DNA from: Eledone cirrhosa
Taxonomy: Eukaryota
Length of the DNA stretch: 64,000 nt
Reading direction: 5' to 3'
Assembly: GCA_964016885.1 (NCBI GenBank)
Contig: OZ024753.1
Span: 7,068,001-7,132,000 of the forward strand
Part shown: positions 1 to 64,000 of the stretch, piece by piece
Layout: every line of letters begins with the position of its first letter
Position numbering within the stretch: the first letter of the stretch is position 1
Program-made: the position numbers and the translations under genes
The notes under the pieces: model-generated
The model's database searches: none
Told to the model about the DNA's origin: nothing
What the model saw: only the letters and a program-made list of their open reading frames with translations

Positions 1-110
1 GAAGTTCTCCCAAGAGCTTACACAGAAATATATTTACTATGAAAGTAATGAGACAGGTTTCACTGCAATTAGAAACATATATATTTCAGGTCTAGCAAAA
101 TATCAAATAA

Positions 111-268
111 ATAATTGTTTCTACTTTTGGCACAAGGCCAGCAATTACCCAGTGCATTACTGGTACTTTATTTTATCGACCCCGTAAGGATGAAAGGCAA
201 AGTCAACCTCGGCGGGATTTGAACTCAGACCGTAAAGGGACGTAACTATGCTAGAAAGCATGGCGTCC
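111..268 (-). mobile_element. tRNA-derived SINE, main family, short-tail form, 5' truncated
   Basis: Reverse complement of GAGTTCAAATCCCGCCGAGGTTGACTTTGCCTTTCATCCTTACGGGGTCGATAAAATAAAGTACCAG...GCTGGCCTTGTGCC..AGTAGAAACAATTATT, repeated throughout the window; central part resembles the MetaSINE domain. Confidence 0.9.
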
Positions 269-292
269 ATAATGGTTCTTAATTTAAGCATA

Positions 293-12335: not shown

Positions 12336-12507
12336 TCTATTGGCCGCGGGGCGCATGAAAGGCAAAATTAGCGTCAACGTGTTTTCAGAGTAATATGATA
12401 ATTATTGTACTCAGCCATGTAGAGCGATAAACCATGTGTTAGTTATTTGAATATGGCAAAGCCGGCCATTAATCGCTTGTATACAGGAAACCGTCTGGCC
12501 TAGCTGC

Positions 12508-12600
12508 TGATATGCAAATCTAGCTGATCAGTGGGTTTGCTAATATGCAGATCTGGCTGATCAGTCAGTCTGCTAATATGCAAGTCAGGCCGATCAGTCT
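12508..12600 (+). promoter_or_regulatory. Three 33-bp repeats carrying octamer or octamer-like motifs
   Basis: ATGCAAAT 12512, ATGCAGAT 12545, ATGCAAGT 12578, each followed by a CTGATCAG-like palindrome. Confidence 0.5.
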
Positions 12601-12654
12601 CTGTATATTTTAGAAATATCATATATTTTCACTAGCTTTGACAGTGGGCAGGTA

Positions 12655-12715
12655 AACAGTATACTGTACTGATGAAGGGTAATCACTCAGAAATATTAGT
12701 GCCTGCAGTTCTGTT
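12655..12715 (+). ncRNA. Type I hammerhead ribozyme motif (cleavage triplet mutated GTC>GCC)
   Basis: AACAG-TAT-ACTGTA CTGATGA A GGGT aatc ACTC A GAAA TATTAGTG CC TGCAGT-T-CTGTT. Confidence 0.8.
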
Positions 12716-12820
12716 ACATCCCAACACAAGAATGACGGGGACATTCTACTGACATGGCTTTAAAGAGTCTGTTTGCATAATTGCAAACGAATCGAATATT
12801 ATTATTAATATTCGAAAAGA

Positions 12821-13013
12821 TGGCGGTGGATTGGCAGTATCGGTAAAGGGTCGGACGCCATGCTTTGACGCATAGAGTTACGGCCCTTGCCATTCTGAGT
12901 TCAAATCCCGCCGAGGTTAACTTTGCCTTTCATCCTTACAGGGTCGATAAAATAAAGTACCAGTAATGCACTGGGTAATTGCTGGCCTTGTGCCAAAAGT
13001 AGAAACAATTATT
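12821..13013 (+). mobile_element. Full-length short-tail SINE with 18-bp target-site duplication
   Basis: ATTATTAATATTCGAAAA at 12801-12818 and 13008-13025; empty site present at about 54587-54605. Confidence 0.95.
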
Positions 13014-13264
13014 AATATTCGAAAAACTCAGATTACATTCATTGTATTCAGCCACTTAGAGCGATAACTATTTGTTAATTATAATAATTATACATATGAC
13101 TATACAGAGATCCTACATTGGTGAGCTGATGATACTTTAGTGTTAGCAGTTTACACTATAACTGAAACGTGTGTAGATGATAATAAAATGTTTCGAAGTA
13201 TCATCATTGGTTTGTCACTTGATTTAAATTATGACGATCTGTATTCTTCCATAAGCGATTAACC

Positions 13265-14457: not shown

Positions 14458-14539
14458 TGCTTTCTGAAGATCCGAACATTTCCATTGGAAGTCCCTAGAA
14501 TCTCCAATCTTTTGTGAGGTGAAACCGTCGGTAAAAGCA
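14458..14539 (+). ncRNA. Type I hammerhead motif with a long stem II insertion
   Basis: TGCTTT CTGAAGA TCC..(ATTGGA/TCCAAT)..GGT GAAA CCGTCGG TA AAAGCA; intact core, 6-bp stem I. Confidence 0.75.
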
Positions 14540-14988
14540 AAAGGAATAGGTCAATATTTAAATTATATTTTTTAATTTATTTTAAAAAATTGTTTGAATC
14601 TTGCTTGCTCCGCTTATCTCAATTTTATAGTTCTGGTATGTCAAATTAATACCATAGAACAACCACTGTATCATAGACACCCTATATATTTCGAGAGGTA
14701 TTTAGTACCTGTGGGGATATTGATCTCCTTTATATATATATATATGAGAAATAGGATTTCGCTTCAAGCATAGCTTTATACAATATGCATAGAAATACGA
14801 TTTTAGGAAGCCGTAGCTTCTGTTGGATAACACCAGAGGGCATTAGCCCCGGGTGTTCGCATAGCTACGGCTTTCTAAAATTGTTTTTCTTTCGAAATAC
14901 GAAATTTCTATACGAATTATATAAAGCTATGCTTGAAGCCGAATCCTATTTCTTTTCTATTATAAGTTGAGCCAACTTATGCAGCTTC

Positions 14989-15040
14989 ATATGCAAATGA
15001 GATTAATCAGCTCATTTACACAGACGAAAAAACTACATGT
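14989..15040 (+). promoter_or_regulatory. Octamer plus PSE/TATA-like candidate promoter
   Basis: ATATGCAAATGAG (identical 13-mer at 50659) followed by ACGAAAAAACTACATG. Confidence 0.5.
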
Positions 15041-15056
15041 TCTCGCCTGTTTTCAA

Positions 15057-15151
15057 GTCCAGCAGTCGCAGAGCAGTGGGAGGGATCGTCCTGACGATAG
15101 CCAGTCAAGCCTGAAATTCATAGACGGTTGTCCCCCTTGCTTCTGCTGGAC
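15057..15151 (+). ncRNA. Type I hammerhead ribozyme with extended stem I
   Basis: GATCGTC CTGACGA TAGC cagtcaa GCCT GAAA TTCA TA GACGGTT; distal pairs GGGA/TCCC and GTCCAGCAG/CTGCTGGAC. Confidence 0.85.
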
Positions 15152-15474
15152 AACACCAGCGAGCGTTAGTCCCCCCGGTGTTCGCATAGCTACGGCTTCC
15201 TAAAAACGTATTTCTTTCGAAATACAAATTTCTATACATATATACATATATATATATATTTTACTGGGAATTCTATAATCACAACTTTTAGTAGTGAACG
15301 TATTTTATAGAAGTTCGGATGTTTTATCTAACAGATAGCAAACTGAATGTTGGCAGGAGCGTTTTAGGGTTTCGATGAAATGATTTGATATATCTGTTCA
15401 GGGTATGTAAGTTGTTAGATTAAACACAATGATGTCAGCATGGCCTTTCATGCTCCCGAGGTCAGTATATTAAA

Positions 15475-19399: not shown

Positions 19400-19499
19400 C
19401 ATTATATGTATATATTGTTTATACACACACACACACACATTTATATATATATATATATTATGTATATATATATATATAATATATATATATATAATATAT

Positions 19500-19577
<78 letters not shown>

Positions 19578-19922
19578 TATATATATATAATATATATATA
19601 TATATAATATATATATATATATAATATATATATATATATAATATATAATATATATATAATATATAATATATATATATATATATATAATATATATATATAT
19701 ATATAATATATATATATATATATAATATATAATATATATATAATATATAATATATATATATATATATATAATATATATATATATATATAATATATATATA
19801 TATATATAATATATATATATATATAATATATAATATATATATAATATATAATATATATATATATATATATAATATATATATATATATAATATATAATATA
19901 TATATATATATATATAATATAT

Positions 19923-19965
<43 letters not shown>

Positions 19966-20009
19966 TATATATATAATATATATATATCTATAATATATAT
20001 ATATCTATA

Positions 20010-20041
<32 letters not shown>

Positions 20042-20432
20042 TATATATATAATATATATATATATATAATATATAATATATATATATATATAATATATAT
20101 ATATATATAATATATATATATATATAATATATAATATATATATATATATAATATATATATATATATATAATATATGATATATATATATATATAATATATA
20201 TATATATATAATATATAATATATAATCTATATATATATAATATATATATATATATAATATATAATATATATATATAATATATATATATATAATATATATA
20301 TATATATATAATATATATATATATATAATATATATATATATATATAATATATATATATATATAATATATAATATATATATAATATATAATATATATATAT
20401 ATATAATATATATATATATATATAATATATAT

Positions 20433-20516
<84 letters not shown>

Positions 20517-20557
20517 AATAATATATATATATATATATAATATATATATATATATAT

Positions 20558-20588
<31 letters not shown>

Positions 20589-20683
20589 ATATATATATAT
20601 ATATTTATAATATATATATATATATATATATTTATAATATATATATATATATATATTTATAATATATATATATATATATATAT

Positions 20684-20769
<86 letters not shown>

Positions 20770-20885
20770 TATATATATTTATAATATATATATATGGATA
20801 AAAATTTATAATATATATATATATAATATATATATATATTTATAATATATATATATAGATAAAAATTTATAATATATATATATAT

Positions 20886-20918
<33 letters not shown>

Positions 20919-21008
20919 ATATATATATCATATATATATAATATATATATCATATATATTATATATATATATAATATATATAATATATATATGTAATATA
21001 TATAATAT

Positions 21009-21053
<45 letters not shown>

Positions 21054-21326
21054 TATCATATATATTATATATATATATAATATATATAATATATATATGT
21101 AATATATATAATATATATATATAATATATATAATATATATATATAATATATATAATATATATATATAATATATATATAATATATATAATATATATATGTA
21201 ATATATATAATATATATATATAATATATATAATATATATATATAATATATATAATATATATATATAATATATATAATATATATATATAATATATATATAT
21301 ATATAATATATATATATATATAATAT

Positions 21327-21394
<68 letters not shown>

Positions 21395-21707
21395 TATATA
21401 TAATATATATATATAAAATATATATAATATATATATATAATATATATATATATAATATATATATATATAATATATATATATAATATATATATATATAATA
21501 TATATATATATAATATATATGATATATATATATATGATATATATATATATGATATATATATATATATAATATATATAATATAAATATATATATGATATAT
21601 ATATATAATATATATAATATAAATATATATATGATATATATATATATATATATATAATATAAATATATATATGATATATATATATATATATAATATAAAT
21701 ATATATA

Positions 21708-21751
<44 letters not shown>

Positions 21752-22248
21752 AATATATATATGATATATATCATATAAATATATATATATATATATATAT
21801 AATATAAATATATATATGATATATATATATATATAATATAAATATATATATGATATATATATATATATAATATAAATATATATATGATATATATATATAT
21901 ATATATAATATAAATATATATATGATATATATATATATATAATATAAATATATATATGATATATATATATATATATATAAATATATATATGATATATATA
22001 TATAATATAAATATATATATGATATATATATATATAATATAAATATATATATGATATATATATATATATAATATAAATATATATATGATATATATATATA
22101 TAATATAAATATATATATGATATATATATATATATATATAATATAAATATATATATGATATATATATATATATAATATATATATGTATATAATATATATA
22201 TATATATATAATATATATATATATAATATATATATATAATATATATAT

Positions 22249-22279
<31 letters not shown>

Positions 22280-22412
22280 ATATATATATATATATATAAT
22301 ATATATATATAATATATATATATATAATATATATATATATAATATATATATATATAATATATATATATATATATAATATATATATATAATATATATGTAA
22401 TATATATATAAT

Positions 22413-22446
<34 letters not shown>

Positions 22447-22539
22447 ATATATATATATAATATATATAATATATATATAATATATATATATAATATATAT
22501 ATAATATATATATATAATATATATATAATATATATATAT

Positions 22540-22570
<31 letters not shown>
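19400..22570. repeat. Giant interrupted (TA)n array, about 3.1 kb
   Basis: Direct reading; AAT interruptions, then GAT/AAAT interruptions. Confidence 0.98.
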
Positions 22571-22571
<1 letters not shown>

Positions 22572-22689
22572 TTAATTATTAAAATAACAGATTAAATTTT
22601 AAGCAAAAATCTACGGTTCCTATATATTTTATATATATTTATCCTTGTCGAGCCCTCTTTGGATTTTAGTCTTCAGATTTATTATTATT

Positions 22690-30497: not shown

Positions 30498-31568
30498 TAA
30501 AAATAATAACTATGTAATCACAATCCATATTTATAAGCTATCGCTACCCGTGAAATAGAATATTACGATAGGAAAGTAAGTTTTGGGTGGTAACATTCAA
30601 AAATGTAGGAATAGTGTGCCTTTATAGTTTGTTTATTTTCATTCCTTGCTTGCTGATTGGAGACGGAATTCTCAACATGTGACAATTCCACACATGTATT
30701 AAGCTTTGCTAGTTAAACACGTACTGAGTGCATTATGATAACTAACTAGTGGACGTTACAAGATTAAATTTAAATATTTAACCAAAAGCTAATTAACAGA
30801 AAACATGGAATAAACTTATTTTTCACATGTTAACAGTTAATAATTAATTCGGAAACTTTAAACAGTTGATGGGAGAAAATAATTGTACACGAAAATTATG
30901 TAAAGAAATTATCGAAGACAAGAATTATATGGATTCAAGGTAGAATTTGCTTAAGATAGGAATCTTGAATATTCATATTAACTGTATTGTGGCATTATTC
31001 GTTGATTCTACGAATTAAAATATTTAATTTCAATTTTGAATTGTTATTGAAAACAAGATAGTTATGAATATTTGATAACAACTCTATCTGTGAATGTGTA
31101 TTCTTTGGAAAATATTTCAATATTCAACATCATTTCTTTCATTCCAATTTATTTTTCTATTATCTTTTATTATTATTTTAGTGTTTGCATATTCAATTTA
31201 ATACATCAAACAGTGTAACTCGTGAGTACTACTTACGCAATTCTCTCAGTAATGCTTAGGTAATTCTCATGAATTTCAAAATATACTATCTGATCACAGT
31301 GGGAAGCTCTAGGTACAAGTTTCCATATACCAATTGATTCTGATCTTATTATTGGCAAACAGAAAAAGAGAGGTAACTGGCAAAAAGTGTATGAGAGTTG
31401 ACAGATTATTGAACAGGATCTAATTACACGGTTATATTATCTGCCTTCAAATTTCTACCAGTCTTCATATTGATTTTCAACCTTTTGTGTTTAGTAAAAT
31501 GCACAACAGACGACAACAATGTTCGGTTTGACAACTGTAGTCTATCACAATGTATATATCGTTGGGTC

Positions 31569-34279
<2,711 letters not shown>

Positions 34280-34326
34280 ACCCGAACATTGTACTTGACT
34301 GTTGTATATTTTACCAAACAAAAGGA

Positions 34327-34460: not shown

Positions 34461-34660
34461 TTCTAGCTGAACTTATGAAGGTGTACATTCCATATATGGG
34501 CATGCAGTGAAAGCAAAAAAAGCAAAAATATTTAATAAAAAAAATCCTAAAAGTTTGTTATTTTTCTTGTTTATCACGGGGAGTGGTCAAGGATCTAGGA
34601 TGCGGTTTACATAGTTAAATTCCTTCATAGTGGCGGGACGCTAAACAGGCCTGAAAAACG

Positions 34661-35103
34661 TGTTGTTGTCTGGCATGTTCGTATAGTACTATACGAACAT
34701 GCCAGGCAACAACATGACGGTAACATAGACAACATAGAAATTATAATAATATCTAAACATAGAAATGACCTAGCAGATAGGCAAATCAGAGAGGCTAGTG
34801 AAATAGAAGTTAGAAGGCCAAGGCTAAACAGAAAGCATGAATGGAATAACAACACTGACCGAAGAGAAGTAGAAATAAATAAATAGATAAATAAATAAAT
34901 AAATAAATACATACACAAGCACAATAACAACACCCAAACAAATAACACTGACCGAAGAGAAGTATAAATAAATAAATAAATAAATAAATACATACACAAA
35001 CACAATAACAACACCCAAACAAACAACACTGACCGAAGAGAAGTATAAATAAATAAATAGATAAATAAATAAATAAATACATACACAAGCACAATAACAA
35101 CAC
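34661..35103 (+). mobile_element. Penelope-like GIY-YIG C-terminus with a 5' fold-back palindrome and a tandemly repeated 3' region
   Basis: YEHARQQHDGNIDNIEIIIISKHRNDLADRQIREASEIEVRRPRLNRKHEW; palindrome 34661-34714; three 81-93 bp units from 34851. Confidence 0.7.
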
Positions 35104-43119: not shown

Positions 43120-43622
43120 AATGATTTCATTTATTGGCCACAAGGGCCGACATATAGGGGACAATACAAAAGACTGGGACAGTGGGGTTTTACAGAAAAA
43201 TCGAATAAACAATATGAATAACAATAACAAAGTAAGGAGAAATATACAACAAGAAAAATTCCCGAATAGAGGGTGGGGGGGGGATGACCATCCAGGGTTC
43301 ACTCATATACCCCACCAATCCTGAACAACCCGAAGCTTCCAGAGCACCCGGAAAGGGCACCCCTCTCCTCCTCAAATTTACGGACCTACAGGCGCATGAT
43401 CAGAGTAGGCCCACTCACAAGGGCCATACTCGCCACATTTACCACCTTTCAGCCACCTTTCAAATGTACTGGGGGGGGGGGCACTTCTCTCTCCACCCTC
43501 ACCTTCCTTTCCAAGTGTAACTTGCAAAAGGTTGATGAGGAATTGGCCGAAGAGAAACGTGTCTGTCTTACGTCCTTTCGACCTAGTCCACCATAACACC
43601 CTCTTTCGCTACTGCCACGATG
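43120..43622 (-). mobile_element. Tx1/L1-type LINE 3' end, diverged subfamily
   Basis: LWWTRSKGRKTDTFLFGQFLIN..., tail CCCTTGTGGCCAATAAATGAAAT; flanked by SINE pieces at 43060-43115 and 43628-43746. Confidence 0.65.
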
Positions 43623-43819: not shown

Positions 43820-43861
43820 GCATACACACACACACACTTATATATATATATATATATACAT

Positions 43862-43913
<52 letters not shown>

Positions 43914-43989
43914 ACACACATATATATATATATACATACACACACATATATATATATACATACACACATATATATATATATATACATAG

Positions 43990-44076
<87 letters not shown>

Positions 44077-44139
44077 GACACATATATATATATATATACA
44101 TACACACATATATATATGTGTGTATGTATATATATACAT

Positions 44140-44180
<41 letters not shown>

Positions 44181-44222
44181 TACACACATATATATATGTA
44201 CACATATACATATACAGATATA

Positions 44223-44265
<43 letters not shown>

Positions 44266-44285
44266 ACACATATATACACACTTAT

Positions 44286-44334
<49 letters not shown>

Positions 44335-44360
44335 CATATATACACACATATATATATATA
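43820..44360. repeat. Compound (TA)/(CA) microsatellite
   Basis: Direct reading. Confidence 0.95.
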
Positions 44361-44371
44361 TTGCAGAAACT

Positions 44372-44800
44372 ACTTGTTAATTTATATATTAGTATATATA
44401 CGTACATACATATATGTATACAGACGTAACTGTAGTATGTATATATATACATACATACATGCACACATATATATATGTACGTAAGGAAAGTATATACTTT
44501 CAGACGTTCAATCATCTGGCAGGAAGGTATACGTTGCTGACGATAGCTAATACGCTTGAAACTAGTACAGCGTTCCTTTGTCAGTGTTGAACAAACGAGC
44601 GACGATAGTTGCTAGACACTGTACGGCTTAATTCGGGATGTTTGTTTACAAACACACCGAGCATTATAATAAATGTTCGATGAATCCATACGTACATATA
44701 TATATATGTGTACATGTATGTATATATATATATATAACATACTACTGTACGTCTGTATACATATATGTATGTACGTATACATACTTATATTTAAGTAACA
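44372..44800. mobile_element. HHR cassette enclosed by about 115-bp inverted repeats
   Basis: 44372-44487 is the reverse complement of 44685-44800 (CAGACGTAACTGTAGTATG / CATACTACTGTACGTCTG). Confidence 0.8.
44506..44592 (+). ncRNA. Type I hammerhead ribozyme, intact core, extended stem I
   Basis: AAGG-TAT-ACGTTG CTGACGA TAGC taatac GCTT GAAA CTAG TA CAGCGT-T-CCTT; distal CTGGCA/TGTCAG and GTTCAA/TTGAAC. Confidence 0.9.
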
Positions 44801-45140
44801 GCCGTACTACGAGTGACAAACGAAATTTCGTTTCATTTTTTCCATTTTATATATTGTTTTATCAATTCTTCCGTCTCTTTATTTTATGTCGATGCCAGGA
44901 ATTTTGAATATTATTTGATGGAATTGAATTGGTAATCTTTGCTCAGGTAACAGAAAATCTGTTTATGTTGCCCTATGGCAAATATGTGTTATGGTTGGTT
45001 CATTTCATGTTTGTTTCCAGTTCCTTTGTCTGTTTGTTAGTTGTGTTTTTTCGATAATGATGATGATGATGGTTAAAATTCAACAAGAAAGATTTCAAGA
45101 AGAGAACATGAATGATGATTATAATCCATATATATATATA

Positions 45141-47452: not shown

Positions 47453-48975
47453 TATACTAGCAGTAAAGCCCGGCGTTGCTCGATGTCGCTCAGTAGCTCT
47501 GTTAAAGTTACAATGTTAAGTTTCTTTTTGGGCTTAAAAACTGTAGTGTCTACTGTGCAGACTTGCATGTGGTGTTTTTGATTAATATTCCCTCAACCAA
47601 CAATATGCCTTATGAAGTTAAGAAAACATAACGATAACCCCAATGTTATAACAAAAGAGGATGCTGGGGATAAAAACTGCACTGGTTATTTATTAACAAA
47701 GATCGAAAATGTAAACACTGCAACGCAGAGAAAAACATTAGCGTAACCAAATTATCAGTTATGTCTGTCTGCACGCCTATATCACCTCTCTGCACGACTG
47801 TCTGTCTGCACGCCTATATCACCTCTCTGCACGACTGTCTGTCTGCACGCGTATATCACCTCTCTGCACGACTGTCTGTCTGCACGCGTATATCACCTCT
47901 CTGCACGACTGTCTGTCTGCACGCCTAACGAAATTTACAGATACATATATTTTAAATAAACTTATATAATTTTTGCTTTTTTTTACGAAATATTTGCTTG
48001 TTTTACGTAGTCTTTAAATAGACTTGTTTTCAAGTAAAAATATTGTTTTAAAAGGCTTTTAAATGGAAATGAAGCAAAACGGAAGCTTAGTGTTCGAACT
48101 GATGAAGCTGTGTTAAAGTTACAATGTTAAGTTTCTTTCTTGGCTTAAAAACTGTAGTATCTACTGTGCAGGCTTGCATGTGGTGTTTTTGATTAATATT
48201 CCCTCAACCAACAATATGCCTTATGAAGTTAAGAAAACATAACGATAACCCGAATGTTATAACAAAAGAGGATGCTGGGGTTAGAAACTGCACTGGTTAT
48301 TTATTAACAAAGATCGAAAATGTAAACACTGCAACGCAGAGAAAAACATTAGCGTAACCAAATTATCAGTTATGTCTGTCTGCACGCCTATATCACCTCT
48401 CTGCACGACTGTCTGTCTGCACGCCTATATCACCTCTCTGCACGACTGTCTGTCTGCACGCCTATATCACCTCTCTGCACGACTATCTGTCTGCACGCGT
48501 ATATCACCTCTCTGCACGACTGTCTGTCTGCACGACTGTCTGTCTGCACGCCTAACGACGAAATATTTGCTTGTTTTACGTAGTCTTTAAATAGACTTGT
48601 TTTCAAGTAAAAATATTGTTTTAAAATGCTTTTAAATGGAAATGAAGCAAAACGGAAGCTTGGTGTTCGAACTGATGAATTTTGCAGGTCAATATTTTGC
48701 TGGCTCGACAACTGTTAAAGCCAGCGTAATTTTTTACGTAAGACGCTCAATGTAAACAGAACAAAGGGAAATAACTGATCACTTACGCTCAAAAATCGAT
48801 ACATTATATTCGATTTCGTCACATAGGGTGGGTCAATTTGAAATGTTTTTTTTTCCGATGTCTTCGCTAGGGCTCAATGTACAAGTATAGCAATTTCGGT
48901 GCAATTCCGTGACAGATTCTAAGAGGAGATGTGTGCCAAAAATCGATAGACAGACAGACAACCACAGTTTTATAT
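47453..48975 (+). mobile_element. Non-autonomous Helitron/Helentron (DINE-1-like) element with internal duplication
   Basis: Starts ATACTAGCAGTAAAGCCCGGCGTTGCTCG, ends CAGACAGACA..TTTTATATATA; 611-bp duplication (47495/48106); 37-bp GTCT-containing tandem units. Confidence 0.6.
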
Positions 48976-49001: not shown

Positions 49002-49757
49002 GTGCCTTTCATCCTTACGGGGTCGATAAAATAAAGTACCAGTAATACACTGGGTATTTGCTGGCCTTGTGCCTAACGTAGAAACAATTATATATATATA
49101 TATATAATTGTTTCTACGCTAGGCACAAGGCCAGCAATAACCCAGTGTATTACTGGTACTTTATTTTATCGACCCCGTAAGGATGAAAGGCAAAGTCAAC
49201 CTCGGTGGGATTTGAACTCAGATTGTAAAGGGACGTAACTATGCTGGAAAGCATGGCGTCCGACCCTCTACCGATACTGCCAATCCACCATCATATATAT
49301 ATATCTATATAATGATAATATAATGATAATCAAAATGCTTACTCATTTAGGCACAAGGCCAACAATTTTTTGAGGGGGAGGGGAAAATTCGATTAATCGA
49401 CACCAGTACGTTATTGGTACTTTATTTTATCGACCCCGTAAGGATGAAAGGTAAAGTTAACCTAAAAAAAAATTGAAAACAGAAAGTACAAAGTCTTAAC
49501 TAAACACCACTAAGCAATTTTTCCAACCCCCTGCCTTTCCAATCCACTGCACTTCACCATCAAACATAATAATTATTTCTACTTCTAGCATAAGGCCAGC
49601 AATTACCCACTACATTACTGGTACTTTATTTCATCGACCCCCGTAAGGATGAAAGGCAAAGTTAACCTCGGCAGGATTTGAACTCAGACCATAAAGGGCC
49701 GTAACTCTTTGCTGCAAAGCATGGCGTCCGACCCTCTACCGATACTGCTGATCCACC
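49002..49757. mobile_element. SINE cluster: tail-to-tail pair (49002-49290) plus two minus-strand copies
   Basis: About 95-bp near-perfect arms centred on (TA)n near 49097; further copies 49330-49550 and 49569-49757. Confidence 0.9.
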
Positions 49758-50141: not shown

Positions 50142-50301
50142 ACCGACGCCATGCTTTGACGCATAGAGTTACGGCCCTTGCCATTCTGAGTTCAAATCGC
50201 GCCGAGGTTAACTTTGCCTTTCATCCTTACGGGGTCGGTAAAATAAAGTACCAGTAATACACTGTGTAATTGCTGGCCTTGTGCCTAACGTAGAAACAAT
50301 T
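50142..50301 (+). mobile_element. Short-tail SINE, 5' truncated
   Basis: Body and tail match. Confidence 0.9.
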
Positions 50302-50317
50302 ATATATATATTTAAGT

Positions 50318-50550
50318 AGAAGGAATATTAAATTTGTTGGTAATTCAACAAATATAAATGTTTATAACTGATTCAGAGCACTCAACAGTTATTCTGGAGT
50401 ATAATATACAATGATATAAAAATAAATGGAAACTATATTTATAAAACCATATTTATTCTATTATATATATTTCAAGGGTACAAAAAATGTTGGTACGCTA
50501 TCATCAGATAAAATATGAAGTGTGTTTTATAAATATTGACATAACCAAGG
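50318..50550 (-). mobile_element. HHR-bearing element family B, copy 1 (HHR 50454-50515)
   Basis: Minus strand: TATTTTAT CTGATGA TAGCGTAC..GTACCCTT GAAA TATATA TA ATAGAATA; collinear with 61730-61968. Confidence 0.8.
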
Positions 50551-50658
50551 ATAATATATTTTAACGGTTCAAGTTATCCATATATATATATATATATAAA
50601 TATATATATAGCATGCATGAAACTAAATATATGTATAACCATTTGTCTATACCATCCA

Positions 50659-50715
50659 ATATGCAAATGAGCATCCCAGGTAAACTTTCATCACCCGAAA
50701 CGAAATCTATATGGA
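50659..50715 (+). promoter_or_regulatory. Octamer plus PSE/TATA-like candidate promoter
   Basis: ATATGCAAATGAG, TCACCCGAAACGAAA at 50691, CTATATG at 50707. Confidence 0.5.
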
Positions 50716-50731
50716 GTATAGTCCATGCCCA

Positions 50732-50818
50732 TGTCAGTAACGGTTGAGTGAAAGCCTCTGACGAGAGGTTAATGAATCTTGAAACAGCGTTGTCTGGCAT
50801 TTTCGAACGCAACTGACA
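50732..50818 (+). ncRNA. Type I hammerhead ribozyme with extended stem I
   Basis: GCCT CTGACGA GAGGTT aatg AATCTT GAAA CAGCGTTG TC TGGC; distal TGTCAGT/ACTGACA. Confidence 0.85.
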
Positions 50819-51074
50819 GAATCTTTTACGGTTTCCCAGAGAAAGATAAAGAAACAATTTATCGTTACGAAAAAGTATTTTTTACCTTTGATACTGCGGC
50901 TAACATATGTTTATTGTACATAAACATATAATATATGACTTCATGCATACCCTATTATACTTAAATGCTTTCTTAGTGTTACTGTAAATAAAAGAATGTA
51001 TATATAGATATATATACAAGTATATATATATGAAAATGTATATATATATAAATATGTACGTATATATATATGTG

Positions 51075-54150: not shown

Positions 54151-54387
54151 GAAATCTATAAGTAAGGATAACCTTCCAATTGCTGATGGTATTTTCCGTA
54201 ATAAACACATTGGCTTTGTCTATTATAATGGAGCATCAACAATAGCAACCGTGAATTTTATTTCTTAATATCGCGAGTGTTAATGGCTTGTAATTCTGAT
54301 AAGAAACATAGATTATAACAACCTGAAAAAGATTAGAAGAGAAATACAAAATTAGGGGGAAGAACCGTTTGATAATATAGATACTAT

Positions 54388-54665
54388 AGATATCATATAT
54401 TTTCACTAGCTCTGACAGTTGGCAGCTAAGCAGTATACGCTACAGATGAAGAGTAATCACCTAGAAATATTAATGTCTGCCGTTCTGTATATATACCAGC
54501 ACAAGAGGTAGAACAGCGAGGACATTCTACTCACATGGCTTAAAGATGGCGTTTGCATAATTGCAAACGTATCCAATATTATTATTATTATTAGTATTCG
54601 AAAAACTCAGATTTGCATTGCATGTATTCAGCCATGTATAGCAATAAAACTATTTGTTAGGTTAT
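54388..54665 (+). mobile_element. HHR element family A, copy 2 (HHR 54431-54487, core U4>A)
   Basis: CAG-TAT-ACGCTA CAGATGA AGAGT aatc ACCTA GAAA TATTAATG TC TGCCGT-T-CTG; collinear with 12612-13085 minus the SINE. Confidence 0.8.
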
Positions 54666-54735
54666 ACTATAGATAATAAAGCTAATATAGATAATATCTT
54701 CACAATAGAACACGACTAAAACAAAGGCTGATTCG

Positions 54736-55929: not shown

Positions 55930-58900
55930 ATGTTTGGTTGGAATAGTAAGGTGGTTAGTTGGTTGGTTGGAATAGTAGGGTGGTTAGTTGGTTGGTTGGA
56001 ATAGTACGGTGGTATAGCTGGTTGGTTGGAATAGTAGGGTGGTTAGCTGGTTGGTTGGAATAGTACGGTGGTATAGCTGGTTGGTTGGAATAGTAGGGTG
56101 GTATAGCTGGTTGGTTGGAATAGTAGGGTGTTTTAGCTGGTTGGTTGGAATAGTAGGGTGGTATAGCTGGTTGGTTGGAATAGTAGGGTGGTTAGCTGGT
56201 TGGTTGGTTGGAATAGTAGGGTGGTTAGCTGGTTGGTTGGAATAGTAGGGTGGTTAGCTGGTTGGTTGGTTGGAATAGTACGGTGGTATAGCTGGTTGGT
56301 TGGAATAGTAGGGTGGTATAGCTGGTTGGTTGGAATAGTAAGGTGGTATAGCTGGTTGGTTGGTTGGAATAGTACGGTGGTATAGCTGGTTGGTTGGAAT
56401 AGTAGGGTGGTATAGCTGGTTGGTTGGAATAGTAAGGTGGTATAGCTGGTTGGTTGGAATAGTAGGGTGGTATAGCTGGTTGGTTGGAATAGTAGGGTGT
56501 TTTAGCTGGTTGGTTGGAATAGTAGGGTGGTATAGCTGGTTGGTTGGAATAGTAGGGTGTTTTAGCTGGTTGGTTGGAATAGTAGGGTGGTATAGCTGGT
56601 TGGTTGGAATAGTAGGGTGGTTAGCTGGTTGGTTGGTTGGAATAGTAGGGTGGTTAGCTGGTTGGTTGGTTGGAATAGTAGGGTGGTTAGCTGGTTGGTT
56701 GGTTGGAATAGTAGGGTGGTATAGCTGGTTGGTTGGAATAGTAGGGTGGTTAGCTGGTTGGTTGGTTGGAATAGTAGGGTGGTATAGCTGGTTGGTTGGA
56801 ATAGTAGGGTGGTTAGCTGGTTGGTTGGTTGGAATAGTAGGGTGGTTAGCTGGTTGGTTGGTTGGAATAGTAGGGTGGTATAGCTGGTTGGTTGGAATAG
56901 TAGGGTGGTTAGCTGGTTGGTTGGTTGGAATAGTAGGGTGGTATAGCTGGTTGGTTGGAATAGTAGGGTGGTTTAACTGGTTGGTTGGAATAGTAGGGTG
57001 GTTAGATGTTTGGTTGGAATAGTAGAGTGGTTAGATGTTTGGTTGGAATAGTACGGTGGTATAGCTGGTTGGTTGGAATAGTAGGGTGGTATAGCTGGTT
57101 GGTTGGAATAGTAGGGTGGTTAGCTGGTTGGTTGGTTGGAATAGTAGGGTGGTTAGCTGGTTGGTTGTAATAGTAGGGTGGTATAGCTGGTTGGTTGGAA
57201 TAGTAGGGTGGTATAGCTGGTTGGTTGGAATAGTAGGGTGGTATAGCTGGTTGGTTGGAATAGTAGGGTGGTTAGTTGGTTGGTTGGAATAGTACGGTGG
57301 TATAGCTGGTTGGTTGGAATAGTAGGGTGGTATAGCTGGTTGGTTGGAATAGTAGGGTGGTTAGCTGGTTGGTTGGTTGGAATAGTAGGGTGGTTAGTTG
57401 GTTGGTTGGAATAGTAGGGTGGTATAGCTGGTTGGTTGGAATAGTATGGTGGTTAGCTGGTTGGTTGGAATAGTACGGTGGTATAGCTGGTTGGTTGGAA
57501 TAGTAGGGTGGTATAGCTGGTTGGTTGGAATAGTAGGGTGGTTAGTTGGTTGGTTGGAATAGTAGGGTGGTATAGCTGGTTGGTTGGAATAGTAGGGTGG
57601 TATAGCTGGTTGGTTGGAATAGTAGGGTGGTATAGCTGGTTGGTTGGAATAGTAGGGTGGTTAGTTGGTTGGTTGGAATAGTAGGGTGGTATAGCTGGTT
57701 GGTTGGAATAGTAGGGTGGTATAGCTGGTTGGTTGGAATAGTAGGGTGGTATAGCTGGTTGGTTGGAATAGTAGGGTGGTATAGCTGGTTGGTTGGAATA
57801 GTAGGGTGGTATAGCTGGTTGGTTGGAATAGTAGGGTGGTATAGCTGGTTGGTTGGAATAGTACGGTGGTATAGCTGGTTGGTTGGAATAGTAGGGTGGT
57901 TAGTTGGTTGGTTGGAATAGTAGGGTGGTATAGCTGGTTGGTTGGAATAGTAGGGTGGTATAGCTGGTTGGTTGGAATAGTAGGGTGGTATAGCTGGTTG
58001 GTTGGAATAGTACGGTGGTATAGCTGGTTGGTTGGAATAGTACGGTGGTATAGCTGGTTGGTTGGAATAGTAGGGTGGTTAGTTGGTTGGTTGGAATAGT
58101 AGGGTGGTATAGCTGGTTGGTTGGAATAGTACGGTGGTATAGCTGGTTGGTTGGAATAGTAGGGTGGTATAGCTGGTTGGTTGGAATAGTACGGTGGTAT
58201 AGCTGGTTGGTTGGAATAGTAGGGTGGTATAGCTGGTTGGTTGGAATAGTAGGGTGGTTAGTTGGTTGGTTGGAATAGTAGGGTGGTATAGCTGGTTGGT
58301 TGGAATAGTAGGGTGGTATAGCTGGTTGGTTGGAATAGTAGGGTGGTATAGCTGGTTGGTTGGAATAGTACGGTGGTATAGCTGGTTGGTTGGAATAGTA
58401 GGGTGGTATAGCTGGTTGGTTGGAATAGTAGGGTGGTTAGTTGGTTGGTTGGAATAGTAGGGTGGTATAGCTGGTTGGTTGGAATAGTAGGGTGGTATAG
58501 CTGGTTGGTTGGAATAGTAGGGTGGTATAGCTGGTTGGTTGGAATAGTAGGGTGGTATAGCTGGTTGGTTGGAATAGTAGGGTGGTATAGCTGGTTGGTT
58601 GGAATAGTAGGGTGGTATAGCTGGTTGGTTGGAATAGTAGGGTGGTATAGCTGGTTGGTTGGAATAGTACGGTGGTATAGCTGGTTGGTTGGAATGGTAG
58701 GGTGGTTAGTTGGTTGGTTGGAATAGTAGGGTGGTATAGCTGGTTGGTTGGAATAGTAGGGTGGTATAGCTGGTTGGTTGGAATAGTAGGGTGGTATAGC
58801 TGGTTGGTTGGAATAGTACGGTGGTATAGCTGGTTGGTTGGAATAGTAGGGTGGTATAGCTGGTTGGTTGGAATAGTAGGGTGGTTAGCTGGTTGGTTGG

Positions 58901-61255
58901 AATAGTAGGGTGGTTAGTTAGATGTTTGGTTGGAATAGTAGGGTGGTTAGTTGGTTGGTTGGAATAGTAGGGTGGTATAGCTGGTTGGTTGGAATAGTAG
59001 GGTGTTTTAGCTGGTTGGTTGGAATAGTAGGGTGGTTAGCTGGTTGGTTGGTTGGAATAGTAGGGTGGTTAGCTGGTTGGTTGGTTGGAATAGTAGGGTG
59101 GTTAGCTGGTTGGTTGGAATAGTAGGGTGGTTAGCTGGTTGGTTGGAATAGTAGGGTGGTTAGCTGGTTGGTTGGTTGGAATAGTAGGGTGGTTAGCTGG
59201 TTGGTTGGTTGGAATAGTAGGGTGTTTTAGCTGGTTGGTTGGAATAGTAGGGTGGTATAGCTGGTTGGTTGGAATAGTAGGGTGGCTAGCTGGTTGGTTG
59301 GAATAGTAGGGTGGTATAGCTGGTTGGTTGGAATAGTAGGGTGGTTAGCTGGTTGGTTGGTTGGAATAGTAGGGTGGTATAGCTGGTTGGTTGGAATAGT
59401 AGGGTGGTTAGCTGGTTGGTTGGTTGGAATAGTAGGGTGGTTAGCTGGTTGGTTGGTTGGAATAGTAGGGTGGTTAGCTGGTTGGTTGGTTGGAATAGTA
59501 GGGTGGTATAGCTGGTTGGTTGGAATAGTAGGGTGGTTAGCTGGTTGGTTGGTTGGAATAGTAGGGTGGTTAGCTGGTTGGTTGGTTGGAATAGTAGGGT
59601 GGTATAGCTGGTTGGTTGGAATAGTAGGGTGGTTAGCTGGTTGGTTGGTTGGAATAGTAGGGTGGTTAGCTGGTTGGTTGGTTGGAATAGTAGGGTGTTT
59701 TAGCTGGTTGGTTGGAATAGTAGGGTGGTATAGCTGGTTGGTTGGAATAGTAGGGTGGTTAGCTGGTTGGTTGGTTGGAATAGTAGGGTGGTTAGTTGGT
59801 TGGTTGGAATAGTAGGGTGGTTAGCTGGTTGGTTGGAATAGTAGGGTGGTATAGCTGGTTGGTTGGAATAGTAGGGTGGTTAGCTGGTTGGTTGGTTGGA
59901 ATAGTACGGTGGTATAGCTGGTTGGTTGGAATAGTAGGGTGGTATAGCTGGTTGGTTGGAATAGTAGGGTGGTTAGCTGGTTGGTTGGTTGGAATAGTAG
60001 GGTGGTTAGTTGGTTGGTTGGAATAGTAGGGTGGTTAGCTGGTTGGTTGGAATAGTAGGGTGGTATAGCTGGTTGGTTGGAATAGTAGGGTGGTTAGCTG
60101 GTTGGTTGGTTGGAATAGTAGGGTGGTTAGCTGGTTGGTTGGTTGGAATAGTAGGGTGGTATAGCTGGTTGGTTGGAATAGTAGGGTGGTTAGCTGGTTG
60201 GTTGGTTGGAATAGTAGGGTGGTATAGCTGGTTGGTTGGAATAGTAGGGTGGTTAGATGTTTGGTTGGAATAGTACGGTGGTATAGCTGGTTGGTTGGTT
60301 GGAATAGTAGGGTGGTTAGCTGGTTGGTTGGTTGGAATAGTAGGGTGGTTAGCTGGTTGGTTGGAATAGTAGGGTGGTTAGATGTTTGGTTGGAATAGTA
60401 GGGTGGTTAGATGTTTGGTTGGAATAGTACGGTGGTATAGCTGGTTGGTTGGAATAGTAGGGTGGTTAGCTGGTTGGTTGGAATAGTAGGGTGGCTAGCT
60501 GGTTGGTTGGTTGGAATAGTAGGGTGGTATAGCTGGTTGGTTGGAATAGTAGGGTGGTTAGCTGGTTGGTTGGAATAGTAGGGTGGTATAGCTGGTTGGT
60601 TGGATAGTAAGGTGGTTTAGCTGGTTGGTTGGAATAGTAGGGTGGTTAGCTGGTTGGTTGGAATAGTAGGGTGGTTAGCTGGTTGGTTGGAATAGTAGGG
60701 TGGTTAGCTGGTTGGTTGGAATAGTAGGGTGGTATAGCTGGTTGGTTGGAATAGTAGGGTGGTATAGCTGGTTGGTTGGAATAGTAGGGTGGTTATCTTG
60801 TTGGTTGGAATAGTAGGGTGGTTAGCTGGTTGGTTGGTTGGAATAGTAGGGTGGTTAGCTGGTTGGTTGGTTGGAATAGTAGGGTGGTTAGCTGGTTGGT
60901 TGGTTGGAATAGTAGGGTGGTTAACTGGTTGTTTGGTTGCAATAGTAGGGTGGTTAGCTGGTTGGTTGGAATAGTAGTGTGGTTAGCTGGTTGGTTGGAA
61001 TAGTAGGGTGGTTATCTTGTTGGTTGGAATAGTAGTGTGGTTAGCTGGTTAGTTGGAATAGTAGGGTGGAATAGCTGGTTGGTTGGAATAGTAGGGTGGT
61101 TAGCTGGTTGGTTGGAATAGTAGGGTGGTTAGTTGGTTGGTTGGAATAGTAGGGTGGTTAGTTGGTTGGTTGGAATAGTAGGGTGGTTAGCTGGTTGGTT
61201 GGAATAGTAGGGTGGTTAGCTGGTTGGTTGGAATAATAGGGTGGTTAGGTGGTTG
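55930..61255. repeat. G-rich satellite, 29/30/33-bp units, about 5.3 kb
   Basis: GGAATAGTAGGGTGG(TA/T)TAGCTGGTTGGTT(GGTT). Confidence 0.98.
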
Positions 61256-61398
61256 GTAGGTTGGTAGGCTGGTCGGATGGTCGGATGTTGGGCTGGTTAG
61301 CTTGTTGGATGGACGGATGGTAGGTTGGTAAATATGTTTAGGCTTACCATTTTTGTTATATATTACCGTCTAATCTCCCTATATTATTTATAGTGGAT

Positions 61399-61590
61399 GG
61401 CGGTGAATTGGCAGTATCGGTAGAGGGTCGGACGCCATGCTTTGACGCATAGAGTTACGGCCCTTGCCATTCTGAGTTCAAATCCCGCCGAGGTTAACTT
61501 TGCCTTTCATCCTTACGGGGTCGATAAAATAAAGTACCAGTAATACACTGGGAAATTGCTGGCCTTGTGCCAAAAGTAGAAACAATTATT
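61399..61590 (+). mobile_element. Full-length short-tail SINE with target-site duplication
   Basis: ATTATTTATAGTGGAT on both sides (61383 and 61586). Confidence 0.95.
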
Positions 61591-61606
61591 TATAGTGGAT
61601 TGGCAG

Positions 61607-61640
<34 letters not shown>

Positions 61641-61729
61641 TGTATGTATGTATGTATGTATGTATGTATGTATGTATGTATGTCTCATGGTCGGGTCACT
61701 GGCGACTAAACTGGCAACCCCACCAAGGT

Positions 61730-61968
61730 TTCTTGGTGAGGAGGGTCACTATTTATAAAACAAATTTTGTATTTTATCTGATGAAAGCGCACCAAGACTG
61801 CCTTGGTTACCCTCGAAATATATATAATAAAATAATTATGGTTTTATAAATATAGTTTCCATTTATTAATATATTGAATATTTGCTCCAGTAATTTATTG
61901 AGTGCTCTATATCAGTTACAAACCTTTAAGTTTGTTGGAATCCCAACAAATTAAATATAACTCCTGCA
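61730..61968 (+). mobile_element. HHR-bearing element family B, copy 2
   Basis: Homologous to 50318-50550 in opposite orientation; ends in (TA)n. Confidence 0.8.
61770..61834 (+). ncRNA. Type I hammerhead motif, intact core
   Basis: TATTTTAT CTGATGA AAGCGC ACCAAG actgc CTTGGT TACCCTC GAAA TATATA TA ATAAAATA. Confidence 0.8.
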
Positions 61969-61985
61969 TATATATACATACAAAC

Positions 61986-62020
<35 letters not shown>

Positions 62021-63272: not shown

Positions 63273-63329
63273 ATTACTATTATTACTACTATTACTCTTC
63301 TTACTATTATTATTATTATTATTATTGAG

Positions 63330-63912
63330 CTGGACTTTGCCTTTCATCCTTACGGGGTCGATAAAATAAAGTACCAGTAATACACTGGGTATCTGCAGCA
63401 TCGGTAGAGGGTCGGACGCCATGCTTTGACGTATAGAGTTACGGCCCTTGCCAATCTGAGTTCAAATCCCGCCGAGGTTAACTTTGCCTTTCATCCTTCC
63501 GGGATCGATAAAATAAAGTACCAGTAATGCACTGGTGTCGATTTAATCAACTTGCCGCTCCTCCAAAATTGCTGGCCTTGTGCCTATAGCAGTAATCATT
63601 ATTATTTTATATTATTAAAGTACCATAATAGGGCGGTGGATTGGCAGTATCGGTAGAGGGTTGGACGCCATGCTTTGCAGCATAGAGTTACGGTCCTTTA
63701 TGATCTGAGTTCAAATCCCGCCGAGGTTAACTTTGCCTTTCATCCTTACGGGGTCGATAAAATAAAGTATCAGTCACGCACTGGGGTCGATTTTATCGAC
63801 TTTGCCCTCCCCCTAAAATTGCTGGCTTTGTGCCTATAAAAAAAAAATATTATTAAAGTACCATAATGCACTGGAATAATTGCTGGCCTTGAGCAAAAGT
63901 AGAAACAATTAT
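63330..63912 (+). mobile_element. Cluster of main-family SINEs
   Basis: Fragments and full copies at 63330, 63398, 63632 and 63855. Confidence 0.9.
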
Positions 63913-64000
63913 TATTTCATATTATATATTGTTTCATGTTTATTATCCTGTATTCACCAGTTTTATGCGTCTATCTACTGTATGACACGGACCCAGTGCA

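What the first reader, a model, noticed from the sequence alone, without database searches (positions are those of the whole stretch)
44372..44800. Intact HHR enclosed by inverted repeats disguised as microsatellite
The cleanest ribozyme in the window (GTA site 44565-44567, ACTAGT stem III, rod-like stem I) lies in a 200-bp core between 115-bp inverted arms rich in TA/CA, which repeat masking would hide. A GAAAGTATATAC box precedes the hairpin but the octamer position is replaced by the inverted arm.
Basis: partly seen in the sequence, partly recalled or inferred. Interest (0 to 1): 0.7.

Follow-up and report, generated by a model that had tools for sequence, protein, structure and literature searches.

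The report
Penelope-style insertion of a hammerhead retrozyme
A small self-cutting-RNA (hammerhead) motif sits between two real inverted repeats in an animal genome, most likely an old, truncated copy of a non-coding parasite pasted in by Penelope-like retrotransposon enzymes, which makes it a tidy but largely ordinary example of a known process.

Summary
A type I hammerhead core (44537-44567; GUA site; palindromic stem III; long rod stem I) lies in a 197-bp core between TA-rich inverted arms at 44375-44487 and 44685-44800 (103 of 120 columns identical, far above microsatellite background). 'Intact' needs a caveat: stem II is 3 bp and lacks the usual G10.1-C11.1 pair, and no partner copy for dimer cleavage lies nearby. 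New anatomy found here: a 16-bp palindrome at the inner junction, a 47-bp tail beyond the right arm only, and a likely 9-bp target-site duplication (44355-44363 / 44848-44856) at the edge of a TA microsatellite. These features are all described for Penelope-like element (PLE) insertions. Four diverged relatives lie in the same window. Two have 325- and about 430-bp tandem units without an ORF, three have an exact octamer upstream, and one repeats the inverted-copy-plus-tail design. Best reading: a 5'-truncated monomer of a non-autonomous hammerhead retrozyme, inserted by PLE machinery, whose inverted copy took the place of the octamer region. Arms differ at 7% of sites, so the insertion is old; nothing shows selection. 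Cleavage, expression and copy number are untested. New member of a known kind.

The parts
43839..44361 (.). TA/CA microsatellite at whose end the element sits (likely target)
   Evidence: TRF period 2, score 486
44355..44363 (+). left copy of a candidate 9-bp target-site duplication
   Evidence: exact match to 44848-44856; the word occurs 5 times on the + strand, 2 of them here; strict null 36 of 9044 stretches, loose null 7-40%
44364..44374 (.). 11 unassigned bases between the duplication and the left arm
   Evidence: no similarity to the tail (228 of 500 shuffles as good)
44375..44487 (-). left arm: inverted copy of the 3' part of the element
   Evidence: 103 of 120 columns identical to the right arm
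   Evidence: one of 4 complex perfect palindromes of 16 bp or more in the window; hairpins predicted at the matching place in 3 of 4 relatives
44506..44592 (+). rod-like stem I carrying the type I hammerhead
   Evidence: predicted fold
44537..44567 (+). hammerhead core: CUGACGA, 3-bp stem II (44545-44547/44554-44556), GAAA, palindromic stem III 44561-44566, predicted cut after 44567
   Evidence: sequence, descriptor, constrained fold; cleavage untested
44640..44679 (+). two small 3' hairpins (44640-44653, 44658-44679) also predicted in relatives E1 and E2
   Evidence: folds; second hairpin 91.7% paired with one compensatory change, not significant with 3 sequences
44685..44800 (+). right arm: TA-rich 3' part of the forward copy, possibly an expanded internal spacer
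   Evidence: spacer between two shared landmarks is 123 bp here against 31 and 32 bp in E1 and E2; inferred
44801..44847 (+). one-sided 47-bp tail with a second perfect 16-bp palindrome (44818-44833)
   Evidence: similarity to E copies weak (19 of 500 and 424 of 500 shuffles as good)
44848..44856 (+). right copy of the candidate target-site duplication
14747..15240 (+). relative B: 72-bp inverted 3' copy with a 40-bp tail on the left only, then 1.3 tandem units of 325 bp with octamer (14991) and hammerhead core (15091), between TA runs
   Evidence: similarity to the finding's core z 8.6
12395..13135 (+). relative E1: permuted unit of about 430 bp, octamer at 12512 plus two one-mismatch copies, decayed hammerhead (12669), split by a 207-bp insert
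   Evidence: z 8.2 to the finding's core
54385..54705 (+). relative E2: decayed hammerhead, no octamer upstream
   Evidence: z 7.4
50655..50900 (+). distant relative C: octamer (50661), box, hammerhead core (50758); linked through B, not directly to the finding
   Evidence: B-C 0 of 500 shuffles as good with the octamer region included, A-C 46 of 500

Best explanation
44364-44847 is most likely an old, 5'-truncated monomer of a non-coding hammerhead retrozyme that was reverse-transcribed and inserted by the enzymes of a Penelope-like element (PLE). Inferred steps: a tandem or circular transcript of the family (octamer, TATA-like hairpin, rod with hammerhead, 3' hairpins, TA-rich 3' part) is bound by a PLE protein; the endonuclease cuts both strands of AT-rich DNA at the end of the TA microsatellite; reverse transcription starts at two nearby internal sites on the two target ends, so one cDNA carries the tail and the other does not; the longer cDNA stops at the TATA-like palindrome, the shorter one after about 115 bases, and the two are joined head to head, giving inverted arms, a junction palindrome and a 9-bp duplication. 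The hammerhead would cut multimeric family transcripts at GUA as a dimer through its palindromic stem III; this solo copy, lacking the octamer and a partner, is probably a dead relic. Shown directly: motif, arms, palindromes, tail asymmetry, relatives. Not shown: cleavage, transcription, the helper PLE.
For: PLE insertions are described with an inverted 5'-truncated copy at the 5' end that creates flanking inverted repeats, a 30-40 bp tail at one end and TA-microsatellite targets (10.1101/2021.04.23.441226, passages), and with palindromes at the inverted junction, a two-way TATA box and 8-10 bp duplications (PMC3846280). A PLE protein cuts and extends both strands of AT-rich DNA, prefers an ATT motif and starts at two internal sites that define the tail (PMC11167929, passages). 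Here: arms, junction palindrome and one-sided tail and a 9-bp duplication that contains ATT (36 of 9044 under the strict null). Relative B repeats the design with the tail on the other side and a 325-bp tandem period. A profile built without this copy finds it at E 6e-4. Type I hammerheads with a tiny palindromic helix III are the metazoan PLE and retrozyme form (PMC4209133). No Pfam hit in 78 of 79 non-simple open frames of 70 residues or more, so no helper ORF is seen in the window.
Against: The tail (47 bp) is longer than the 30-40 bp described and its likeness to the relatives is weak. The duplication is AT-rich, and a loose null gives 7-40%. The arm is not a mirror of the 5' repeat as in the rotifer example; it copies only the 3' part. 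The copy is a monomer, so the tandem criterion for an active retrozyme is not met. Stem II lacks the G10.1-C11.1 pair called highly conserved in PMC4209133. No close paralogue is in the window, no genome is held, and no family alignment of near copies could be made. B does not score against a profile of the other four, so the group is loose.
Confidence: 0.62

Rival explanations
1. It is the 5'-truncated end (solo pseudo-LTR) of an autonomous, ORF-bearing PLE, with the same insertion mechanism but no separate non-autonomous family.
For: Most PLE insertions are 5'-truncated and leave a single repeat (10.64898/2026.07.22.740005, Discussion); most minimal hammerheads occur as single motifs thought to be truncated PLEs (PMC4209133). 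Nothing upstream of the box survives in this copy.
Against: Relatives B and E1 show short tandem or permuted units (325 and about 430 bp) with the unit's own 3' end upstream of the octamer and no ORF. They are distant relatives, so this is indirect.
Confidence: 0.2
2. A non-autonomous DNA transposon (Mutator-like or foldback MITE) with TA-rich inverted repeats of about 115 bp captured a hammerhead fragment.
For: Long inverted arms and a 9-bp duplication fit Mutator-type elements (recalled, not from a call).
Against: The arms are not terminal: 11 bp and 47 bp separate them from the duplications. The distinctive part of the arm occurs only at these two places in the window (16 shared 14-mers seen exactly twice). 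Relative B shows the same inversion with an unrelated arm sequence.
Confidence: 0.08
3. A plain retrozyme monomer was already in place and a later local template switch or repair event in the TA-rich DNA copied its 3' part in inverted form.
For: The window holds other fold-back structures, for example 34670-34705 and 49003-49192, and long TA runs.
Against: Both arms lie inside one candidate duplication, which points to a single event. The fold-back at 34670-34705 follows a fragment similar to relative C, and the one at 49003-49192 is made of the abundant dispersed repeat.
Confidence: 0.08

Closest known systems
Insertion architecture of endonuclease-bearing Penelope-like elements (PMC3846280; 10.1101/2021.04.23.441226; PMC11167929)
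   Same: Inverted 5'-truncated copy next to the forward copy, one-sided tail, palindrome and TATA-like box at the junction, 9-bp duplication, AT-rich or TA-repeat target, type I hammerhead.
   Different: No ORF; total length 484 bp; the inverted part is low-complexity TA/CA DNA; tail 47 bp; helper element not identified.
Metazoan non-LTR retrozymes (PMC7229834; PMC7761336; 10.64898/2026.07.22.740005)
   Same: Non-coding, low GC (core 40%), type I hammerhead with weak helix III; unit sizes of relatives (325 and about 430 bp) fall in the 150-450 bp range; solo monomers are described.
   Different: This copy is a truncated monomer with an inverted arm. Circular RNA and cleavage are untested. Relatives carry an octamer, whereas PMC7761336 says metazoan retrozymes seem to lack promoters.
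Newt satellite 2
   Same: Tandem unit with a dimer-type hammerhead; said to have an internal snRNA-type promoter (PMC2220036, passage citing Coats 1994). That this promoter includes an octamer is recalled, not read.
   Different: No sequence comparison was made; this copy lacks the octamer; promoter activity of the relatives is untested.

Membership tests
Type I hammerhead ribozyme | Core CUGANGA, GAAA and NUH intact, three stems, open stem I | tested here: met
Type I hammerhead ribozyme | G10.1-C11.1 pair and a stable stem II | tested here: not met
   U-U (or A-U in the bulged register) next to the core; 3-bp stem. This lowers the expected activity; it is not a core nucleotide.
Type I hammerhead ribozyme | Match to an Rfam hammerhead model | tested here: not met
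   0 hits at gathering in the window, none at E 10 in 44480-44688; relative B is missed too, so the models seem not to cover this form
Type I hammerhead ribozyme | Self-cleavage at the predicted site | not testable with these tools
   needs an in vitro assay
PLE-type insertion | Inverted 5'-truncated copy adjoining the forward copy | tested here: met
   also in relative B
PLE-type insertion | 30-40 bp tail on one end only | tested here: inconclusive
   one-sided extension of 47 bp against 11 bp; 40 bp in B; homology of the tail to relatives weak
PLE-type insertion | AT-rich target and 8-10 bp duplication when visible | tested here: met
   9-bp exact duplication at the end of a TA array; strict null 0.4-0.9%, loose null 7-40%
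PLE-type insertion | Palindrome at the inverted junction | tested here: met
   16-bp perfect palindrome 44486-44501
Autonomous PLE | RT plus GIY-YIG ORF between pseudo-LTRs | tested here: not met
   no Pfam hit in 78 of 79 open frames of the window; a decayed ORF could be missed
Non-LTR retrozyme | Tandem 150-450 bp units, at least two with complete hammerheads (active form) | tested here: not met
   this copy is a monomer; B has 1.3 units and one hammerhead
Non-LTR retrozyme | Non-coding, no LTR, PBS or PPT, dispersed related copies | tested here: inconclusive
   3 direct and 1 indirect relative in 64 kb; no genome-wide count; PBS and PPT were not searched
Non-LTR retrozyme | Linear and circular monomer RNAs in vivo | not tested
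   no RNA data could be examined
MITE or Mutator-like element | Inverted repeats at the very ends, next to the duplication | tested here: not met
   arms end 11 and 47 bp inside the duplications

The most novel reading that the evidence does not exclude
This genome holds a diversified group of non-autonomous hammerhead retrozymes that carry their own octamer-based, snRNA-like promoter, as newt satellite 2 does, and are inserted with the full Penelope signature (inverted copy, tail, junction palindrome, duplication). That would give direct structural evidence that PLE enzymes mobilise retrozymes, so far argued from co-occurrence and phylogeny, and a short natural substrate for testing how PLE inversions form.
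Probability: 0.3. Interest if true: 0.55.

Novelty: new member of a known kind. Interest (0 to 1): 0.27.

Why it matters
The single locus is an old relic and matters little. Its value is as an example: two non-coding hammerhead units in one window carry the insertion marks of Penelope-like elements, which bears on the open question of which machinery moves animal retrozymes, and three relatives carry an octamer although metazoan retrozymes are said to lack promoters. Low-complexity arms also mean that standard masking would cut such insertions short.

Tried and rejected
No genome is held for this window. Rfam: nothing at gathering in 64 kb, only chance snoRNA hits at E about 10. Sequencing-run search: 19 of 24 listed rows hold some of 24 words of 44480-44695; five organism labels in five studies hold 6-16 words and the rest under 5, which is no evidence; no RNA holder listed. 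An exact 18-base core word gave 8 metagenome loci, 0 of 8 with a hammerhead core upstream or wider similarity, and 0 viral loci. RNAalifold on five unanchored rods gave no useful consensus. Covariation in the 3' hairpin is not significant (153 of 500 shuffles). Tail homology is not picked out by an unbiased tile search; the motif that finds the four tails (0.37 expected) was designed from them and is not counted as a test. Assembly artefact is rejected because the arms differ at 8 of 111 aligned sites. Selection on the ribozyme is not needed: the chance of no change in 13 core bases at half that divergence is 0.62. A junction-born origin of the palindrome was considered; relatives have a hairpin at the same place, so it may be ancestral. 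Look-ups of earlier scan notes by sequence and place returned nothing. Three primary papers were not held.

Full report
Context. The window is AT-rich animal-like DNA full of TA microsatellites and an abundant dispersed repeat. It resembles octopus DNA by my recall only; no genome is held and the organism was not determined. None of 78 non-simple open frames of 70 residues or more that were scanned (of 79 listed) hits Pfam.

The ribozyme. The sequence shows CUGACGA at 44537, GAAA at 44558, the palindrome ACUAGU at 44561-44566 and GUA at 44565-44567. Stem I is 6 bp (44531-44536 with 44568-44573) and continues as a rod 44506-44592. A strict type I descriptor passed 4 loci in the window against 0.11 per shuffled window in 100 shuffles. 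Against the word 'intact': stem II has three pairs beside a U-U mismatch and lacks the G10.1-C11.1 pair that PMC4209133 calls highly conserved. The fold is not more stable than chance (19 of 200 shuffles as good). The active-compatible fold costs 1.4 kcal/mol over the minimum and makes up 2.5% of 2000 sampled folds; the program cannot model a 2-nt loop III. Rfam finds nothing. A 1-2 bp helix III with a palindromic loop is the usual metazoan form, poor as a monomer and active as a dimer (PMC4209133); the palindrome can form a 6-bp duplex between two molecules (-4.8 kcal/mol). No close partner copy lies in the window.

The arms. They are 44375-44487 and 44685-44800, with 103 identical, 8 different and 9 gapped columns of 120. 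The score is 156 against at most 100 in 3161 window tiles and 75 in 1000 shuffles; 16 of the 28 shared 14-mers occur only at these two places. Dustmasker hides 102 of 113 and 95 of 116 arm bases but none of the core. The 7% difference rules out an assembly echo and marks the insertion as old; an unchanged 13-base core is expected with probability 0.62 without selection.

The box is part of a perfect 16-bp palindrome (44486-44501) at the arm-core junction. A second one (44818-44833) lies beyond the right arm; only 4 complex perfect palindromes of this size exist in the window. A 9-mer at 44355-44363 recurs exactly at 44848-44856. It occurs 5 times on the + strand, and words ending outside the pure TA run match in 36 of 9044 random stretches (27 of 2877 TATATA-bearing ones), though a looser null gives 7-40%. 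Taken as a target duplication it defines a 484-bp insert at the end of a 520-bp TA array, with 11 bp outside the left arm and 47 bp outside the right arm. The arms are therefore not terminal.

Relatives. The core aligns with E1 (12610-12818), E2 (54385-54604) and B (15020-15240) at z 8.2, 7.4 and 8.6, but not directly with C (50695-50890; z 1.7). C links to B when the octamer region is included. A profile of the other four finds this copy at E 6e-4; B and C are not recovered when left out, so the group is loose. An exact octamer lies 101, 35 and 41 bp upstream of the box in E1, B and C, none in E2 or here; 1.1% of random positions have one. B has a 325-bp tandem period, a 72-bp inverted copy of its 3' part on the left and a 40-bp extension on that arm only, all between TA runs. 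E1 is a permuted unit of about 430 bp once a 207-bp insert is removed. Between two shared landmarks E1 and E2 have 31-32 bp where this copy has 123 bp, which suggests that the right arm is an expanded internal spacer; the downstream landmark is only weakly similar (19 of 500 and 424 of 500 shuffles as good), so this stays an inference. In public runs, five organism labels in five studies hold 6-16 of 24 sampled words of the core, roughly 1-4% divergence.

Comparison with the literature. PLE insertions often have an inverted 5'-truncated copy at the 5' end that yields flanking inverted repeats, a 30-40 bp tail at one end and microsatellite targets (10.1101/2021.04.23.441226, passages). Rotifer PLEs show a 31-bp tail, a two-way TATA box, an 18-bp palindrome at the repeat's 5' end, 8-10 bp duplications and palindromes at inverted junctions (PMC3846280, passages and one section). 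A purified PLE protein cuts and extends both strands of AT-rich DNA, prefers ATT and starts at two internal RNA sites that define the tail; its hammerhead needed the protein and was dispensable for insertion in vitro (PMC11167929, passages). Non-LTR retrozymes are 150-450 bp non-coding hammerhead repeats (PMC7229834, passages) proposed to be PLE derivatives, with solo monomers common (10.64898/2026.07.22.740005, first part of the text, passages and Discussion; its supplements were not seen). PMC7761336 (passages) says they seem to lack promoters, while PMC2220036 (passage) and PMC6765202 (passages) report polymerase II transcription of newt satellite 2; the octamer in that promoter is recalled, since the primary papers were not held. 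PMC4209133 was read in parts 1-2 of 4; PMC8967140 in passages. Ten full-text searches listed no paper that, by title, abstract start or the passages read, describes this family or an octamer-bearing invertebrate retrozyme; subscription papers, repeat databases and supplements were not covered.

Mechanism and rivals. The simplest single event is a PLE-driven insertion of a non-coding hammerhead unit: a double cut at the end of the TA array, two cDNAs primed from two nearby internal sites, one stopping at the TATA-like hairpin and one after about 115 bases, joined head to head (0.62). Every enzymatic step is inferred. A truncated end of an autonomous PLE uses the same chemistry (0.2). A MITE (0.08) fails on non-terminal arms and on B's unrelated arm; a later local inversion (0.08) is disfavoured because both arms lie inside one duplication. 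Two earlier scan notes on other genomes reach similar readings; they are unchecked and are not counted as support.

Verdict. Real, well formed and explained by known biology: a new member of a known kind, interest 0.27. The more novel reading, a promoter-bearing retrozyme group with full Penelope insertion marks, has probability 0.3 and would merit 0.55.

Noticed in passing
window 14747-15240: Octamer-bearing hammerhead unit in 1.3 tandem copies (325 bp) with an inverted 3' copy and a one-sided 40-bp tail, between TA runs; a clearer example of the same design.
   Followed up: yes
window 12395-13135 and 54385-54705: Two related units with decayed hammerheads. E1 has three octamer-like repeats 33 bp apart and is split by a 207-bp insert with an 18-base repeat at its ends; E2 has a reverse octamer at 54611 and a second box-like stretch downstream.
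   Followed up: partly
window 34603-34720: Fragment similar to relative C (0 of 500 shuffles as good) that ends in a perfect 36-bp fold-back palindrome (34670-34705).
   Followed up: partly
window 50300-50540 (-) and 61745-61983 (+): A separate AT-rich family, 80% identical between the two copies, each with a type I hammerhead passing the strict descriptor (50507, 61778).
   Followed up: no
window 14464-14533, 13126, 28798, 46324: Further hammerhead-like cores; 14464 passes the strict descriptor with a long stem II region, the others look decayed.
   Followed up: no
window 100-270, 49003-49192, 63300-63930 and many more: Very abundant repeat family (matches of up to about 400 bp) that forms tandems and head-to-head palindromes; one copy has a hammerhead-like word at 43532.
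   Followed up: no
window 56000-62000: About 6 kb with extreme GC skew (0.64-0.86), probably a G-rich tandem array.
   Followed up: no
window 19400-22600 and 31400-34300: Kilobase-long almost pure AT arrays (GC 0.2-1.3% in 2-kb bins).
   Followed up: no
window 47495-48679: Direct tandem duplication of about 600 bp, 90% identical.
   Followed up: no
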